From contig NZ_CAXBBV010000009.1 of assembly GCF_963973945.1 (NCBI RefSeq), positions 53,108 to 117,107 of the forward strand: a DNA stretch of 64,000 nt, given 5' to 3'. The stretch is from an uncultured Roseivirga sp. (GTDB taxonomy: Bacteria > Bacteroidota > Bacteroidia > Cytophagales > Cyclobacteriaceae). Under the pieces are notes generated by a model. It was not told the DNA's origin. It worked only from the letters and a program-made list of their open reading frames with translations, and did not search any database. Below, piece after piece: positions 38,695 through 42,369 of the stretch. The position numbers were made by a program, and so were the translations under genes. Within the stretch, counting starts at the first letter, position 1, and the number at the start of each line of letters is the position of its first letter.

Positions 38695-40059
38695 TTACTC
38701 CTGATGAAAAACCATCTTAAAAGTAGCGCCCTTACCAAGCTCAGTTTCAAGCTGAATATCTCCACCATGCAGCTGCATAATTTGCTTAGAAAGGCTGAGT
38801 CCAATACCCGAACCTCTGTTTTTGGTAGAGAAGAAAGGCATGAAAATCTTCTCAGTGGCTTCAGGAGTAATGCCCGCGCCATTGTCGCTAATTGATACAG
38901 TCACTAACTCTCCATGCACACTGGTTTCTAGTTTCACTTTAGCATTTTCTTTATTTTCAACCACTTCCAAGGCATTTTTCAGAATATTGATCAGTACCTG
39001 TTCAATCAATTGATAGTCAATGTTTAATTGAATTGGGGTTTCAGCGTGAATGACTTCCAACGCTACATTCGCTTTAAGGAAATCATTCTTGAGTAAGGCT
39101 GTTGTGTTTTGCACCAATGACTTGACATCCGTTGGACGTTTGTCGGGTTCTGGTAGGTTGGTGTAATCGCGATAGGCGTTTACAAAATTGATGAGCCCTT
39201 CACTACGGCTAGAAATGGTGCTCAAGCCTTCGGTAAGGTCTTCCAAGCTTTCATCTTCAATGGTATTGAGTCCGTTTTTCTTAATTACATCTTCTTTCAA
39301 CACTTCGCTTAGGGTAGAAGTGAGCGAAGAAATAGGGGCAATGGAATTCATGATTTCGTGCCGAAGTACTTTGGTAAGGTTCTGCCAAGCTTCCAATTCT
39401 TTGGCTTGTAATTCCGCCTTAATGTCCTGTAAGGCAATCAATCTGTAGAGCTCACCTCCCAGTTTATACATGGTTTCAAGAATCACCAATTCCTGTCCTT
39501 TTTCATTTTTGTAAGCTGCTCTTTTAGAGGAGTTAAGGTGAGTAATGGTAAAGTGAAAGTTAAGCGCTTTTTGTCTGAGGTCATCAAGACTCCTAAGACT
39601 TTCGAGCTGTAATAAATGAAGTGCAGAACGGTTGATCAATTTCACTTCCCCAGTCTCGTTGATGGCGATGATTCCCGTACCAATATTTTCAACGACTACG
39701 CGCAACTGCTGAAAAGACTGCTCGCTCTTTTTACGTTCCTCCAAAATGGCATCAATCACATCTTTAAAAGCTAGATTCAGTGCTTTAAAGGTTTTTCCCA
39801 ATTTATTATCATGAGTAAAACTCATGTTGAAGTCGTTGTATTTGATGGCATCGAAGAAGCGAGTGAGCTTCTTGTTGGTACTTTCGATGTAGTTGAAAAG
39901 CTCAAATACCTCGAAAATGATCAGGAAACCAGTGACCACGGTAGTTACATACTTCTGATCGAAGAAGAGCAAATACACGAAAACGGCTACCGTAACAAAC
40001 AATACGATAACGCGAATCAGTACGAATATTCTAAAGCGATTAAAGCCCATATTTCTCAA
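38695..40059 (-). CDS. Sensor histidine kinase (two TM helices, PAS-like, HisKA, HATPase)
   Basis: RHEIMNS (H box), NILKNA (N), DNGAGI (G1), FFSTK (F) and GSGIGL (G2). Confidence 0.93.
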   Translation of the reverse strand: MRNMGFNRFRIFVLIRVIVLFVTVAVFVYLLFFDQKYVTTVVTGFLIIFEVFELFNYIESTNKKLTRFFDAIKYNDFNMSFTHDNKLGKTFKALNLAFKDVIDAILEERKKSEQSFQQLRVVVENIGTGIIAINETGEVKLINRSALHLLQLESLRSLDDLRQKALNFHFTITHLNSSKRAAYKNEKGQELVILETMYKLGGELYRLIALQDIKAELQAKELEAWQNLTKVLRHEIMNSIAPISSLTSTLSEVLKEDVIKKNGLNTIEDESLEDLTEGLSTISSRSEGLINFVNAYRDYTNLPEPDKRPTDVKSLVQNTTALLKNDFLKANVALEVIHAETPIQLNIDYQLIEQVLINILKNALEVVENKENAKVKLETSVHGELVTVSISDNGAGITPEATEKIFMPFFSTKNRGSGIGLSLSKQIMQLHGGDIQLETELGKGATFKMVFHQE

Positions 40060-41416
40060 GTCTTCGGTACAAAGATGAACGGGTTAAACCTAATTCTTGT
40101 GCCGCATGGGTGATATTTCCGTTATGTTTGGCCAATACTTTTCTGATTAGGATTCGCTCGACATCTTCCAAGTTGAACTGTTCCAAATTGATGTCATCCT
40201 TATCGCGAACAGGCTGATTATTATTGAAAAAGAAGTCCTCGGGTTGAAGAATGTTATCACGACTCATGATTACCGCGCGCTCTATGGCATGTTGTAACTC
40301 ACGCACATTCCCGGGCCAGCTATATTTCTCCAAGCGCTTAAGGGTGGCTTCACTGAACTTGTAAATGTCTTTATTGTACTTTTTTGCGTAGTCTTTTAGG
40401 TAATGTTCAGCAAGTAGGGGGATGTCCTCAATTCGTTCCCTCAAAGCGGGCAACTTCAGTTCTATGGTGTTAATCCGATAGAGTAAATCTTGCCTAAATT
40501 CTCCTTTCTGCACCATTTCGTAAAGCGGCATATTGGTGGCGCAGATCAAGCGAATATCGACATCAATTGTCTTATTCGATCCGACACGATTCACTTTTCT
40601 GTTTTGTACTGCGGTTAAGAGTTTGGCTTGCAATGGAAGTGAAAGGTTGCCAATTTCATCCAAAAATAAGGTGCCTCCATTGGCGATTTCAAATCTACCT
40701 GCACGGTCTGTTTTAGCATCGGTGAAGGATCCGCGCACGTGACCAAAGAGTTCGCTTTCAAATAAGTTCTCAGAAATAGCCCCTAAGTCTACACTTATAA
40801 AGGGCTTTTCTGCTCTTTTTGAATTTCTGTGAATTGATCTGGCTATCAGCTCTTTACCTGTTCCGTTTTCACCCAATACTAAAACATTGGCATCTGTGCT
40901 TGCTACTCGCTCAATGGTATCGAAAACCTGAATCATCGATCCACTTTGTCCAATAATTTCCTTGAATTTATGATCGAGGTCTTGGGTCAAAGTATCTTCT
41001 CGGTCTTTCATTAATTTTAGCTCTTCTTTAGACGACCTTAAGCGGATGGACGAAAGGAGAGTGGCCAAGAGTTGCTCGTTTTCCCAAGGCTTCATTACAA
41101 AATCAGAAGCGCCTGCTTTAATGGCTTTTACGGCCAAATCCACTGAACCAAAGGCGGTAATGAGCACTACCACTGCGGATGGGTCGATCTCTAATATTTT
41201 ATCCAACCAATGAAAACCTTCTTGCCCAGAGTTTACATCTTGGGTGAAATTCATATCGAGCAGAATGACATCATATGCATCATTTTGGAGCAGGTCAGGA
41301 ATAAGTGTGGGGTCTTTCTCCAAATCAATTTGACCAAAATGCCGCTTCAGATAAATTCTGGCGGCTTTTAGTAAATCTTCATTGTCGTCTATGATGAGTA
41401 TTTTTCCTTGTTTCAC
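40040..41416 (-). CDS. Sigma-54-dependent response regulator (NtrC-type: REC-AAA+-Fis HTH)
   Basis: IIDDN...LLDMN, GENGTGKE, GHVRGSFTDA (GAFTGA-loop variant), LFLDEIG, WPGNVRELQH and a C-terminal HTH. GTG start; overlaps the kinase. Confidence 0.95.
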   Translation of the reverse strand: MKQGKILIIDDNEDLLKAARIYLKRHFGQIDLEKDPTLIPDLLQNDAYDVILLDMNFTQDVNSGQEGFHWLDKILEIDPSAVVVLITAFGSVDLAVKAIKAGASDFVMKPWENEQLLATLLSSIRLRSSKEELKLMKDREDTLTQDLDHKFKEIIGQSGSMIQVFDTIERVASTDANVLVLGENGTGKELIARSIHRNSKRAEKPFISVDLGAISENLFESELFGHVRGSFTDAKTDRAGRFEIANGGTLFLDEIGNLSLPLQAKLLTAVQNRKVNRVGSNKTIDVDIRLICATNMPLYEMVQKGEFRQDLLYRINTIELKLPALRERIEDIPLLAEHYLKDYAKKYNKDIYKFSEATLKRLEKYSWPGNVRELQHAIERAVIMSRDNILQPEDFFFNNNQPVRDKDDINLEQFNLEDVERILIRKVLAKHNGNITHAAQELGLTRSSLYRRLEKYGL

Positions 41417-41431
41417 GGTGTGTCTATTTTA

Positions 41432-41589
41432 CAATCCCCCAGCCCCCTTGGCCAAGGGGGAGGTGGTAACGATGTTGATTACTTTCAATACTACTTTCTC
41501 TTTTCTTTACCCTTATGGCTTCGGATTTTAACTAACCAATGCTGTCTATTCGAAGCCTTCCCCCTTTTTCAAAGGGGGCTAGGGGGATT
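41432..41589. repeat. ~158-bp REP-doublet unit, left copy
   Basis: CAATCCCCCAGCCCCCTTGGCCAAGGGGG...CCCCCTTTTTCAAAGGGGGCTAGGGGGATT, with internal hairpins and inverted termini. Confidence 0.9.
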
Positions 41590-41593
41590 ACGA

Positions 41594-41974
41594 TTACTCT
41601 ATCGCTTTATTCAATGTTTCTTCTGATAAATGGCCTTCAATCGTTCTAATTACATTTTTTAAGTCATATTTAACATCTACTTCCGCAATTCGAACAACTT
41701 TATATCCCAGCTCATTTAGTCTTAAGTCTCTTGTTCTATCCTGCTCTTGTTTGTCATCATGCGATCGGCCATCAAGTTCTATAATCAACCTTTCCTTTCT
41801 ACATATAAAATCAACAATGTAATTTTCGATTGCGAATTGTCTGTTAAACTGAAGTCCATAAAATCGTTTTGCCCTGAGCACATGAGCCCATAAGATGGCC
41901 TCACCGGGAGTTCCATGTTTTCGGAGCTCACGAGCCAATGGTTTTAGTTTCTTATTGTAACTGGACTTGTTCAT
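41594..41974 (-). CDS. DUF559-family (Vsr-like PD-(D/E)xK) endonuclease domain protein
   Basis: ARELRK..TPGEAILW...FNRQF.I..YIVDFIC....LIIELDGRSH...DR.RD..L..LGYKVVR. Confidence 0.93.
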   Translation of the reverse strand: MNKSSYNKKLKPLARELRKHGTPGEAILWAHVLRAKRFYGLQFNRQFAIENYIVDFICRKERLIIELDGRSHDDKQEQDRTRDLRLNELGYKVVRIAEVDVKYDLKNVIRTIEGHLSEETLNKAIE

Positions 41975-42017
41975 GTTATTTATTCAATCCTTAAACGCTT
42001 TTAAGTATTTATGAAAT

Positions 42018-42174
42018 CAATCCCCCAACCCCCTTGGCCAAGGGGGACGCGGTTACGATGCTGATTACTATCAATATTTCTTCACCTTTTCTTTATCCTT
42101 TTGGCTTCGGCTTTGATTAAACACGGCTGTCTATTCGGAACCTTCCCCCTTTCTTAAAGGGGGGCAGGGGGATT
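42018..42174. repeat. ~157-bp REP-doublet unit, right copy (direct repeat of 41432-41589)
   Basis: CAATCCCCCAACCCCCTTGGCCAAGGGGG...CCCCCTTTCTTAAAGGGGGGCAGGGGGATT. It aligns end to end with the left copy, roughly 80% identical by eye. Confidence 0.9.
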
Positions 42175-42263: not shown

Positions 42264-42369
42264 TTGCCGTCCGCTAGCGGACGGCAAAGTGCGATGGCGA
42301 CCAATTAGCAAGAGGTTGTTTGTGTTAATTTATTGATATATAGTTAATTAACTTTGGTATGACAGTTGG
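42264..42369 (+). promoter_or_regulatory. Candidate sigma-54 promoter: palindromic UAS, IHF-like site and -24/-12 box
   Basis: Perfect 24-bp palindrome TTGCCGTCCGCTAGCGGACGGCAA (42264-42287); TATCAATAAATTA on the minus strand (42338-42326) matches WATCAANNNNTTR; TGGTAT-N5-TTGG (42355-42369) has the -24/-12 spacing. Confidence 0.6.

What the first reader, a model, noticed from the sequence alone, without database searches (positions are those of the whole stretch)
41432..42174. DUF559 nuclease gene bracketed by duplicated REP-doublet units: candidate non-transposase mobile element
A 126-aa Vsr-like nuclease gene lies between two ~157-bp direct repeats. Each repeat has inverted termini (AATCCCCC..CCCCCTT / AAGGGGG..AGGGGGATT) and two internal hairpins, so the whole 743-bp block also has inverted ends. 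This mirrors the REPIN-RAYT layout, but with a PD-(D/E)xK nuclease instead of a HUH transposase. The internal spacer is also conserved between copies, so the whole unit was duplicated. That fits a homing-like spread in which the nuclease cuts an empty single unit and is copied in by recombination. The block sits 16 bp upstream of the NtrC-type gene start, between it and the divergent regulatory region.
Basis: partly seen in the sequence, partly recalled or inferred. Interest (0 to 1): 0.76.

Follow-up and report, generated by a model that had tools for sequence, protein, structure and literature searches.

The report
Nuclease gene nested in triplex repeats
A small DNA-cutting-enzyme gene (DUF559) in a marine Roseivirga sits tightly between copies of a folded "triplex-type" DNA repeat; the 743-bp block is present, reduced to one repeat, or cleanly absent in related species, which fits this enzyme family being the unknown protein partner of such repeats but gives no sign that the block has moved recently.

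Summary
Two 157/158-bp direct repeats (84% identical, unique in the genome) bracket an intact 126-aa DUF559 (Vsr-fold) gene, 15 nt upstream of the NtrC-type gene.

Each repeat end is a three-block motif: pyrimidine block, complementary purine block, then a mirror-image G/T block (CCCCCTTT / AAAGGGGG / GGGGGATT). This is the geometry of the published BoxC/PIT/"TM" intrastrand-triplex repeats, for which no partner enzyme has been described.

Across 25 Roseivirga genomes the locus is occupied in 9 alleles. It is a solo repeat in one species and cleanly empty in R. ehrenbergii and at least ten others. Protein and RpoB trees agree, so the block is ancestral and was lost at least five times. I found no gain.

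The pairing is general:
- 54 of 60 Roseivirga DUF559 genes have such motifs nearby, against 3.4% of control genes.
- 66 of 80 relatives from many phyla have them.
- Protein similarity tracks repeat similarity (rho 0.45).
- Cognate repeats elsewhere number 8.9 per genome with the gene and 1.35 without it.

Best reading (0.45): a REPIN/RAYT-like nuclease-repeat partnership that is old and vertically inherited. Biochemistry is untested.

The parts
41432..41589 (.). Unit A, the NtrC-proximal 158-bp repeat unit. It is MITE-like: two inverted triplex-type termini around about 100 nt of variable interior.
   Evidence: Across orthologous units the termini are conserved and the interior is not.
41433..41460 (-). 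Outer triplex-type motif (TM) of unit A. On the minus strand it reads CCCCCTTGGCCAAGGGGG-CT-GGGGGATT.
41560..41589 (+). Inner TM of unit A: CCCCCTTT-TTC-AAAGGGGG-CTA-GGGGGATT. The third block is the mirror of the second with A replaced by T. It ends 4 nt from the DUF559 stop codon.
   Evidence: RNA contigs from two metatranscriptomes end at 41583/41584, inside this motif.
41594..41974 (-). DUF559 gene, 126 aa, with a Vsr-like PD-(D/E)xK fold. It is intact and under purifying selection.
   Evidence: Pfam PF04480 E 1.3e-31. PDB 3HRL E 5e-15 by sequence. AlphaFold2 pLDDT 86.7, with fold hits to 3HRL, the I-Bth0305I homing endonuclease and Vsr. dN/dS 0.02-0.11. Residues D55, E66, D68 and H72 are invariant.
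42018..42174 (.). Unit B, the permease-proximal 157-bp repeat unit.
42019..42046 (-). Inner TM of unit B. On the minus strand it reads CCCCCTTGGCCAAGGGGG-TT-GGGGGATT. It lies 44 nt upstream of the DUF559 ATG, against 12-21 nt in relatives.
42145..42174 (+). Outer TM of unit B: CCCCCTTTCTTAAAGGGGGG-CA-GGGGGATT. It forms the right edge of the block.
   Evidence: Sequence to its right (TTGTCTC...) follows directly in the empty allele of G007.
40040..41416 (-). Flank: NtrC-type sigma-54 activator gene, in the same orientation as DUF559. Not part of the element.
42264..42287 (.). Flank: perfect 24-bp palindrome in the divergent regulatory region, conserved in empty and occupied alleles. Not part of the element.

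Best explanation
The block is a DUF559 (Vsr-fold) nuclease cassette nested in its own family of intrastrand-triplex-type repeats, the class published as BoxC/PIT/TM.

**Anatomy (shown).** The gene is packed between two inverted triplex-type motifs (TMs), with their third (G/T) blocks facing the gene. In Roseivirga each of these inner TMs is one end of a 157-bp MITE-like unit whose other end is a second, inverted TM.

**History (shown).** The cassette is an old, vertically inherited and dispensable resident of the NtrC/permease intergenic region.
- The protein is under strong purifying selection.
- The block was lost several times. One loss was whole and nearly precise (R. ehrenbergii). Another left a solo unit, consistent with recombination between directly oriented TMs (G006).
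- Unit number changes by tandem duplication. In this genome unit A has been overwritten by a unit-B-like copy.

**Mechanism (inferred).** The DUF559 protein specifically recognises its cognate TM, as duplex, hairpin or folded triplex, and binds or nicks it. Through nick-induced repair or recombination it maintains, homogenises and occasionally spreads gene-less TM elements in trans. This would be a partnership like REPIN/RAYT, but with an unrelated enzyme and repeat. The same nicking would make TM loci unstable, which fits the observed gains and losses of units.
For: 1. **Association in the genus.** 54 of 60 small DUF559 genes in 25 Roseivirga genomes have a hairpin-plus-tail motif within 150 nt, and 27 of 60 have one on both sides. 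Among 1500 control genes the figures are 51 and 0. In G000 there are only about 12 such loci, and all three DUF559 domains have one adjacent.
2. **Association beyond the genus.** 66 of 80 relatives from many phyla have the motif, 40 of 80 on both sides.
3. **Triplex geometry.** The third block is a near-perfect mirror (A or T opposite A) of the purine block in 68 cases and a direct copy in 4.
4. **Protein and repeat co-vary in unrelated contexts.** Spearman rho is 0.45, and 0 of 300 permutations reach it. A Bacteroidales MAG with a 59%-identical protein, sister to the Roseivirga clade, has TM ends 93% identical over 31 nt.
5. **Cognate TM counts follow the gene.** Outside the locus there are 8.9 copies per genome with the gene (n = 8) and 1.35 without it (n = 17), Mann-Whitney p = 0.0009. 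G016 has 37 and its sister G012 has 1. The dispersed copies in G016 share the loop TTGGAGAA with the TMs at G016's own DUF559 gene. They are absent at two orthologous sites in G012.
6. **The gene is functional.** dN/dS is 0.02-0.11. RNA contigs cover its 3' part.
7. **The block is discrete.** There is a clean empty allele in G007, which is nested inside the occupied clade. A solo-unit versus unit-gene-unit contrast occurs at two independent loci.
8. **Fold.** The nearest solved structures are DUF559 3HRL and the homing endonuclease I-Bth0305I.
9. **Literature.** TM repeats are linked to local genome instability and no mobility enzyme has been found for them (PMC4666352). DUF559 is 14-fold enriched among predicted inversion targets, meaning genes flanked by inverted repeats (PMC9881135).
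Against: - No cleavage or binding data exist for any such DUF559 protein.
- TM copy numbers are low: 6 termini of this family in G000. This is far below typical REPIN populations.
- Cognate TMs persist in genomes without the gene. G003 has 6. For a second TM family, G019 has 7 copies without the matching gene and G016 has the gene and 0 copies.
- The count comparison is not corrected for phylogeny. Only 4 of 5 rough sister contrasts point the expected way.
- The protein-repeat covariation is partly confounded by host lineage and base composition.
- No target-site duplication is visible, and no recent copy of the gene or the full unit exists within or between genomes.
- The RNA evidence comes from low-depth assembled contigs of unknown strand.
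Confidence: 0.45

Rival explanations
1. Homing-type selfish cassette. The nuclease cuts a solo unit at an empty allele or elsewhere, and double-strand-break repair copies unit-gene-unit into it.
For: - Solo units exist at the same site in G006 and at the ruvB locus of G000, where relatives carry unit-gene-unit.
- The second-best structural match is a true homing endonuclease, I-Bth0305I.
- The same DUF559 clade sits in the same relative position upstream of an NtrC-type gene in Carboxylicivirga.
Against: - Copies at the NtrC locus form one clade that agrees with the RpoB tree, so the pattern is losses, not gains.
- G006's solo unit keeps the left-unit interior and the flank of the right unit, as expected from a crossover between TM ends.
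- Paralogues within one genome are under 50% identical, each clade corresponds to one orthologous locus, and there are no near-identical copies elsewhere.
- Gene-less units persist for long periods at a second locus (C12:68835) without being converted.
Confidence: 0.12
2. The TMs are cis-acting control or insulation elements of a potentially toxic nuclease gene, acting as operator, terminator, or mRNA 5'/3' structure. The protein may autoregulate through them. Nothing moves.
For: - Spacing is tight and conserved. The TM ends 12-21 nt before the ATG in this clade, and the downstream TM starts between -8 and +15 nt of the stop.
- Two RNA contigs end at the TM edge.
- The inner TMs can pair and close off the transcript.
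- Protein-TM covariation also fits an operator role.
- The locus is inherited vertically over long periods.
Against: - This does not explain the gene-less TM elements dispersed in the genome, about 33 in G016, sharing the loop of the gene's own TMs.
- It does not explain the outer TMs, the whole units, or the solo units left after gene loss.
- PIT elements showed no promoter or terminator activity in E. coli, as reported in PMC4666352.
Confidence: 0.2
3. Passive association. TM repeats are recombination-prone, self-propagating DNA structures that pile up in certain intergenic spots, and DUF559 is simply frequent cargo or a neighbour with an unrelated job.
For: - TMs occur without DUF559 in several genomes.
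- TM loci are intrinsically unstable (PMC4666352).
- Unit numbers vary even at a locus that has no gene.
Against: - 90% of DUF559 genes have TMs against 3.4% of control genes, and both-sided bracketing is never seen in controls.
- The pairing recurs across phyla with the same orientation, third block towards the gene.
- Specific protein clades go with specific TM families.
Confidence: 0.13
4. An ordinary very-short-patch (Vsr-type) mismatch repair nuclease that repairs deaminated 5-methylcytosine. The repeats are irrelevant.
For: - The protein has a Vsr-like fold.
- A Caulobacter DUF559 protein, VsrA, is functionally linked to a cytosine methyltransferase (PMC12907096).
Against: - No C5-cytosine methyltransferase (PF00145) is found in this 100%-complete genome.
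- The match to the E. coli YcjD-type NCBIfam model is only 60 bits against a cut-off of 218.
- This model explains none of the repeat data.
Confidence: 0.05

Closest known systems
BoxC / PIT elements / TM(ECO) intrastrand-triplex repeats (Bergler 1992; Hoyne & Maher 2000; Holder et al. 2015, PMC4666352)
   Same: - Both have a G/C-rich three-block motif: pyrimidine block, loop, complementary purine block, short loop, then a mirror purine/G-T block.
- Both are intergenic and dispersed.
- Both are linked to locus rearrangement between close relatives.
- No transposase or integrase lies nearby in either case.
   Different: - The blocks here are 5-8 nt (CCCCCTTT / AAAGGGGG / GGGGGATT), not the 9-nt CCCTCNCCC consensus.
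- The motifs are paired in inverted orientation around about 100 nt to form 157-bp units.
- They bracket a nuclease gene. The published work names no protein partner.
REP/REPIN-RAYT systems (Nunvar 2010; Bertels & Rainey 2011; from my own knowledge)
   Same: - A single-copy, vertically inherited nuclease-type gene is bracketed by inverted copies of its own palindromic repeat.
- Gene-less copies are dispersed in the genome.
- Repeat families match enzyme clades.
- Repeats are scarcer where the gene is absent.
   Different: - The enzyme is a Vsr-fold PD-(D/E)xK protein, not an HUH/Y1 transposase.
- The repeat is a triplex-type motif, not a simple REP hairpin.
- Copy numbers are mostly single digits, with about 37 in one genome.
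- No biochemistry exists.
Vsr-like/EDxHD homing endonucleases such as I-Bth0305I (PDB 3R3P)
   Same: - It is the same catalytic fold (Foldseek probability 1.00, TM-score 0.71 normalised to the target).
- It is a small free-standing nuclease gene with presence/absence polymorphism.
   Different: - The gene is not in an intron or intein.
- It has a repeat bracket.
- There is no evidence of gain at empty alleles in this genus.
E. coli YcjD and N. gonorrhoeae NGO0050 (PDB 3HRL), DUF559 proteins of unknown function
   Same: - They belong to the same Pfam family.
- 3HRL is the best match by both sequence and fold.
   Different: No function is known for them either. I did not examine their flanks here; earlier scan notes say ycjD ends in a BoxC copy.
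Solo LTRs and MITEs
   Same: - A solo unit left after recombination between flanking direct repeats resembles a solo LTR.
- The units, and the 95-nt elements of G016, look like MITEs: inverted ends and no coding capacity.
   Different: There is no transposase, no target-site duplication, and no reverse-transcription logic.

Membership tests
DUF559 (PF04480), Vsr-like PD-(D/E)xK nucleases | Profile match above the curated cut-off | tested here: met
   109.1 bits against a cut-off of 20.6, E 1.3e-31, covering profile positions 2-106 of 109.
DUF559 (PF04480), Vsr-like PD-(D/E)xK nucleases | Vsr-like fold with conserved acidic and histidine core residues | tested here: met
   The AlphaFold2 model has pLDDT 86.7. 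Top fold hits are 3HRL, 3R3P and 1VSR. D55, E66, D68 and H72 are invariant in 8 orthologues and relatives. Catalysis itself was not tested.
Canonical Vsr / VSP repair | Partner C5-cytosine methyltransferase in the genome | tested here: not met
   PF00145 has no match in the 100%-complete genome.
BoxC/PIT/TM intrastrand-triplex repeats | Three consecutive blocks: pyrimidine block, complementary purine block, and a third block mirror-symmetric to the purine block (G opposite G, A or T opposite A) | tested here: met
   Own termini read CCCCCTTT / AAAGGGGG / GGGGGATT, with 8 of 8 mirror positions. Over all DUF559 loci, the third block is a near-perfect mirror in 68 cases and a direct copy in 4.
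BoxC/PIT/TM intrastrand-triplex repeats | Match to the E. coli TMECO consensus CCCTCNCCC-N3-6-GGGNGAGGG-N3-GGGNGAGGG | tested here: not met
   The blocks here are C5/G5 plus A/T and are shorter. This is the same class, not the same sequence family.
BoxC/PIT/TM intrastrand-triplex repeats | Dispersed intergenic copies with local instability between close relatives | tested here: met
   There are 6 termini of this family in G000 and 0-37 in relatives. The reversed control pattern gives 0. Unit number varies at two loci.
BoxC/PIT/TM intrastrand-triplex repeats | Actual triplex formation | not testable with these tools
   This needs CD or NMR spectroscopy or chemical footprinting.
REPIN-RAYT | The enzyme is an HUH/Y1 (IS200-like) transposase | tested here: not met
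   The gene is DUF559. The 7 Y1_Tnp matches in G000 lie elsewhere, and none is adjacent to a TM.
REPIN-RAYT | Gene flanked by inverted copies of its own repeat; repeat family specific to the enzyme clade | tested here: met
REPIN-RAYT | Large repeat population (tens to hundreds) that depends on the gene | tested here: inconclusive
   Copies outside the locus number 8.9 with the gene and 1.35 without it, p = 0.0009 uncorrected for phylogeny. Counts are mostly single digits and there are exceptions.
Homing endonuclease gene | Presence/absence polymorphism at one site with clean empty alleles | tested here: met
   G007 and at least 10 other species are empty.
Homing endonuclease gene | Evidence of gain: gene tree discordant with species tree, or recent spread | tested here: not met
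   The locus copies form one clade consistent with the RpoB tree, and at least 5 losses suffice to explain the pattern.
Transposon / IS / MITE | Transposase gene or target-site duplication | tested here: not met
   Neighbours are a sensor kinase, NtrC and FtsX-type permeases. No duplication is visible at the block or unit edges.
Known RNA family | Rfam covariance-model match | tested here: not met
   There is no match in the units. One sub-threshold hit lies outside the block.

The most novel reading that the evidence does not exclude
DUF559 nucleases are the dedicated partner enzymes of the BoxC/PIT/TM intrastrand-triplex repeats found across bacteria. This would be a second, independent repeat-enzyme symbiosis alongside REPIN/RAYT. 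A Vsr-fold nickase would read a folded or mirror-repeat DNA motif, keep its own gene bracketed by that motif, seed gene-less copies in trans, and thereby cause the local genome instability long noted around these repeats.
Probability: 0.3. Interest if true: 0.85.

Novelty: new variant of a known kind. Interest (0 to 1): 0.6.

Why it matters
BoxC/PIT/TM repeats have been known since the 1990s. They occur in hundreds of genomes and mark unstable loci, yet no protein has been tied to them (PMC4666352). DUF559 is a very large nuclease family with no assigned function.

This Roseivirga locus gives an unusually clean natural allelic series: full, multi-unit, mini-unit, solo and empty forms. It also supplies three specific handles for experiments:
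- the mirror-repeat rule for the third block;
- enzyme clades matched to repeat families;
- repeat counts that follow the gene.

Together these make the partnership directly testable with one 126-aa protein and a few oligonucleotides. If true, it would explain a class of orphan repeats and a source of bacterial genome instability.

The finding is not unique to this window. The same pairing has been noted repeatedly in this scan, so this report adds evidence and limits rather than a first sighting.

Tried and rejected
- **Full unit as a multi-copy repeat in G000:** rejected. There are only the two copies.
- **RAYT-driven REP elements:** Y1_Tnp genes exist but are not near any TM.
- **Known structured RNA:** Rfam finds nothing.
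- **Integron cassette or attC site:** there is no integrase among the neighbours, and the ends are unlike the R'/R'' cores.
- **Type III toxin-antitoxin-like repeat array:** the units lie on both sides of the gene, are variable, and in G024 are reduced to half termini.
- **Target-site duplication at block or unit edges:** none found.
- **Independent insertions at the NtrC locus:** rejected by the single clade.
- **Recent horizontal transfer:** the nearest copy outside the genus is 70% identical. A singleton paralogue (L042) has no close relative outside Roseivirga.
- **Inversion of the gene between its inverted TMs:** all 9 alleles have the same orientation.
- **Defence-system membership:** PADLOC gives only a 12-bit chance hit.
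- **Precise ends of the G016 MITE-like elements from empty sites in G012:** the elements are absent there, but the intergenic DNA is too diverged to fix their edges.
- **TM counts for two further families:** the association is weaker and partly circular, because the genes' own TMs are counted.
Full report
**What is there**

The window is C9:53108-117107 of a 4.46-Mb, 39% G+C Roseivirga genome.
- At 41432-41589 and 42018-42174 lie two direct repeats of 158 and 157 bp. They are 84% identical and occur nowhere else in the genome at full length.
- Between them, on the minus strand, is a 126-aa ORF (41594-41974). It matches Pfam DUF559 at E 1.3e-31.
- The block begins 15 nt from the start codon of an NtrC-type sigma-54 activator gene in the same orientation. 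It ends about 90 nt before the palindrome of the divergent regulatory region of an FtsX/MacB-type permease array.

**The repeat ends are triplex-type motifs (TMs)**

Each unit ends in C5-loop-G5-(2-3 nt)-G5ATT, mirrored at the other end.
- Read in full, the inner terminus of unit A is CCCCCTTT / AAAGGGGG / GGGGGATT. That is a pyrimidine block, its complement, and a third block that mirrors the second with T opposite A.
- I tested this rule on all DUF559 loci I collected where the purine block is not its own mirror. The third block is a near-perfect mirror in 68 cases and a direct copy in 4.
- This is the geometry of an intrastrand purine-motif triplex. It is also the defining feature of the BoxC/PIT/'TM' repeats studied by Holder et al. 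2015 (PMC4666352). That paper gives the E. coli consensus as CCCTCNCCC-N3-6-GGGNGAGGG-N3-GGGNGAGGG. It links the repeats to local genome instability and states that no transposase or integrase was ever found near them.
- The Roseivirga motifs belong to the same class but not the same sequence family.
- As single-stranded DNA a whole unit folds into one long stem through its two ends (-31.7 kcal/mol, z = -4.7).
- Across orthologous units only the two ends of about 30 nt are conserved. The 100-nt interior drifts.

**The locus across the genus**

I compared the NtrC/permease intergenic region in 24 other Roseivirga species plus R. echinicomitans.
- Unit-gene-unit: own genome, R. seohaensis (G010) and G015.
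- A 53-nt collapsed mini-unit plus gene plus unit: R. echinicomitans.
- Two units on each side: G014.
- Two units plus one: G011.
- Only half termini: G024.
- Other units of the same family: G016 and G020.
- One solo unit and no gene: G006.
- Nothing at all: R. ehrenbergii (G007) and at least ten others.

In G007 the sequence reads ...TCTATTTTT-CAACC-TGTCTCATC... The occupied alleles read ...TCTATTTTA[CAATCCCCC...GGGGGATT]TTGTCTCATC...

**Gain or loss**

- The nine DUF559 copies at this locus form one clade (support 92/91). Its branching, (G024,G020),(G016,(G011,(clade with own genome))), does not conflict with an RpoB tree of the same genomes.
- On the RpoB tree, G007 (empty) is nested among occupied genomes. 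At least five changes are needed, all explicable as losses.
- G013's 'empty' allele still holds what looks like a decayed TM.
- G006's solo unit has the interior of the NtrC-side units and the right flank that follows the permease-side unit in its relative G011. That is what a crossover between the conserved, directly oriented ends would give.
- The block is therefore ancestral in the genus, dispensable, and repeatedly lost.
- I found no gain. Paralogues within a genome are under 50% identical. Each DUF559 clade in the genus corresponds to one orthologous locus. The closest copy outside the genus is 70% identical. A singleton paralogue has no close relative elsewhere.
- In this genome unit A resembles unit B, whereas in sister species the NtrC-side unit has a different interior.

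**How general the pairing is**

- In G000 only about 12 loci carry such motifs. All three DUF559 domains have one adjacent, including a second small gene at C2:421850-422240 with its own TM family and a solo unit of that family at C5:305789.
- In 25 Roseivirga genomes, 54 of 60 small DUF559 genes have a motif within 150 nt, and 27 have one on both sides. Among 1500 control genes the figures are 51 and 0.
- At the ruvB locus, G000 has a solo unit where G014 has unit-gene-unit-unit.
- Among 80 relatives from Bacteroidota, Cyanobacteria/Melainabacteria, Pseudomonadota, Nitrospirota, Patescibacteria, Chloroflexota and others, 66 have the motif and 40 have it on both sides. The third block always faces the gene. 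Most exceptions are DUF559 domains inside large ORFs.
- Relatives at 50% identity or more, from Marivirga, Carboxylicivirga, Draconibacterium, Bacteroidales and others, nearly all carry the same C5/G5...GGGGGATT family, in unrelated gene neighbourhoods.
- Over 1426 pairs in non-orthologous contexts, protein identity and TM similarity correlate (rho 0.45, with 0 of 300 permutations as high). Host lineage and base composition confound this in part.

**Do gene-less repeats follow the gene?**

- The pattern AGGGGG-N2-4-GGGGGAT gave 0 hits for its reversed control. Outside the NtrC locus it occurs 2-33 times in the eight genomes that have this DUF559 clade (mean 8.9). In the 17 genomes that lack the clade it occurs 0-6 times (mean 1.35). 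Mann-Whitney p is 0.0009, not corrected for phylogeny.
- The clearest contrast is G016 (37 termini) against its sister G012 (1).
- In G016 most copies are about 95-nt MITE-like elements. An outer inverted repeat encloses one TM whose loop (TTGGAGAA) is the same as in the TMs at G016's own DUF559 gene. The copies are 75-87% identical to each other. They are missing at two orthologous sites in G012.
- Two other TM families gave weaker, partly circular support, with clear exceptions: G019 has 7 copies without the matching gene, and G016 has the gene with 0 copies.

**The protein**

- dN/dS among close orthologues is 0.02-0.11.
- The best PDB match by sequence is 3HRL, a DUF559 protein of unknown function.
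- The AlphaFold2 model (pLDDT 86.7) matches 3HRL, then the homing endonuclease I-Bth0305I, then PvuRts1I and Vsr.
- There is no C5-cytosine methyltransferase in the genome, so a classical very-short-patch repair role is unlikely.
- In two marine metatranscriptomes, 100%-identical RNA contigs cover 41583/41584 to 41790/41748, the 3' part of the gene. Both stop inside the inner TM of unit A. A 95-99% identical strain in another metagenome carries the whole block. These are low-depth contigs without strand information, so I treat the end point as a lead only.

**Interpretation**

- Shown: the anatomy, the allelic series, the direction of change (loss), the generality of the pairing, the mirror rule, and purifying selection.
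- Inferred: that the protein recognises its TM, and that this maintains or spreads gene-less TMs in the manner of RAYT with REPINs. I put this at 0.45.
- The homing model gets 0.12, because every test that could have shown a gain showed vertical descent instead.
- A purely cis-regulatory role for the TMs (0.2) explains the tight spacing and the RNA ends. It does not explain dispersed cognate copies or solo units.
- Passive association (0.13) does not explain the 90% versus 3.4% contrast or the clade-family match.

**Literature and earlier notes**

- A full-text search for DUF559 returned no paper linking it to repeats.
- The only published hint is its 14-fold enrichment among genes flanked by inverted repeats (PMC9881135).
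- Earlier notes of this scan report the same DUF559-BoxC/TM pairing in E. coli ycjD, Clostridia, Prevotella and others. I took the published names of the repeat class from those notes. I then verified the class definition in the paper and tested the mirror rule on my own data.
- The idea is therefore not new within this scan, but it appears to be unpublished.
- This locus adds the clean empty, solo and full series, the loss-only history, and the count contrast.

Noticed in passing
window 42031-42037 and 41436-41451 (strain in run X4); L012/L013/L007/L015/L016: A 14-16-nt palindrome, CCCGAAGC(T/C)TCGGG, sits nested inside TM hairpin loops in several alleles. It is polymorphic in a 95-99% identical natural strain, so a tiny palindrome apparently inserts into or replaces TM loops on a short timescale.
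   Followed up: partly
L088:1000-2000 (Carboxylicivirga taeanensis): The same DUF559 clade (61% aa) with the same TM family lies in the same relative position: just upstream of an NtrC-type sigma-54 activator that is divergent from an HlyD/MacA-type efflux gene. The best G000 counterpart of that NtrC is the paralogue at C2:171259-172020, not the window's gene. This is either target preference or old synteny, and it is only one case.
   Followed up: partly
G016 (loci L187-L206): There are about 30 dispersed MITE-like elements of roughly 95 nt. Each has an outer inverted repeat (GAAATTAGAAACA...TGTTTCTAATTTC) around one cognate TM. They mostly lie just after genes and are 75-87% identical to each other. 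They are absent at two orthologous sites in the sister genome G012.
   Followed up: partly
G000 contig ends C8:217149-217242, C14 and C21 starts, C9 end / C13 start: Several contigs break right after a TM terminus, in a shared repeat (...GTCCTGAAATAGGTTTACA...). The same junction is seen in G007:C2:229326. It may be an insertion sequence or another repeat that targets or abuts TMs.
   Followed up: no
G000 C11:102622-102999: The third DUF559 domain of the genome is the C-terminus of a 1057-aa ORF. Similar 1051-1075-aa ORFs occur in four relatives. It is followed within 25 nt by a TM-like motif.
   Followed up: no
G000 C2:421160-422432: The second small DUF559 gene has its own TM family (CCCCCGCCAGCGGGGG... 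/ ...GGGGAGG-TTGGA-GGGGGAT). An extra open frame of about 160 aa (421310-421790) lies between a full unit and a half unit, giving a cassette-array-like look.
   Followed up: no
G000 C12:68835-68954 and orthologous sites in G010, G014, G015: A second locus has no gene but carries the same unit family. It holds two tandem units in G010 and G015, one in G014, and a decayed left end in G000.
   Followed up: partly
L021:800-890 (G020): A different REP-like long palindrome (GTCATTCCCGCGCAGGCGGGAATC...GATTCCCGCCTGCGCGGGAATGAC) lies next to the cassette in G020.
   Followed up: no
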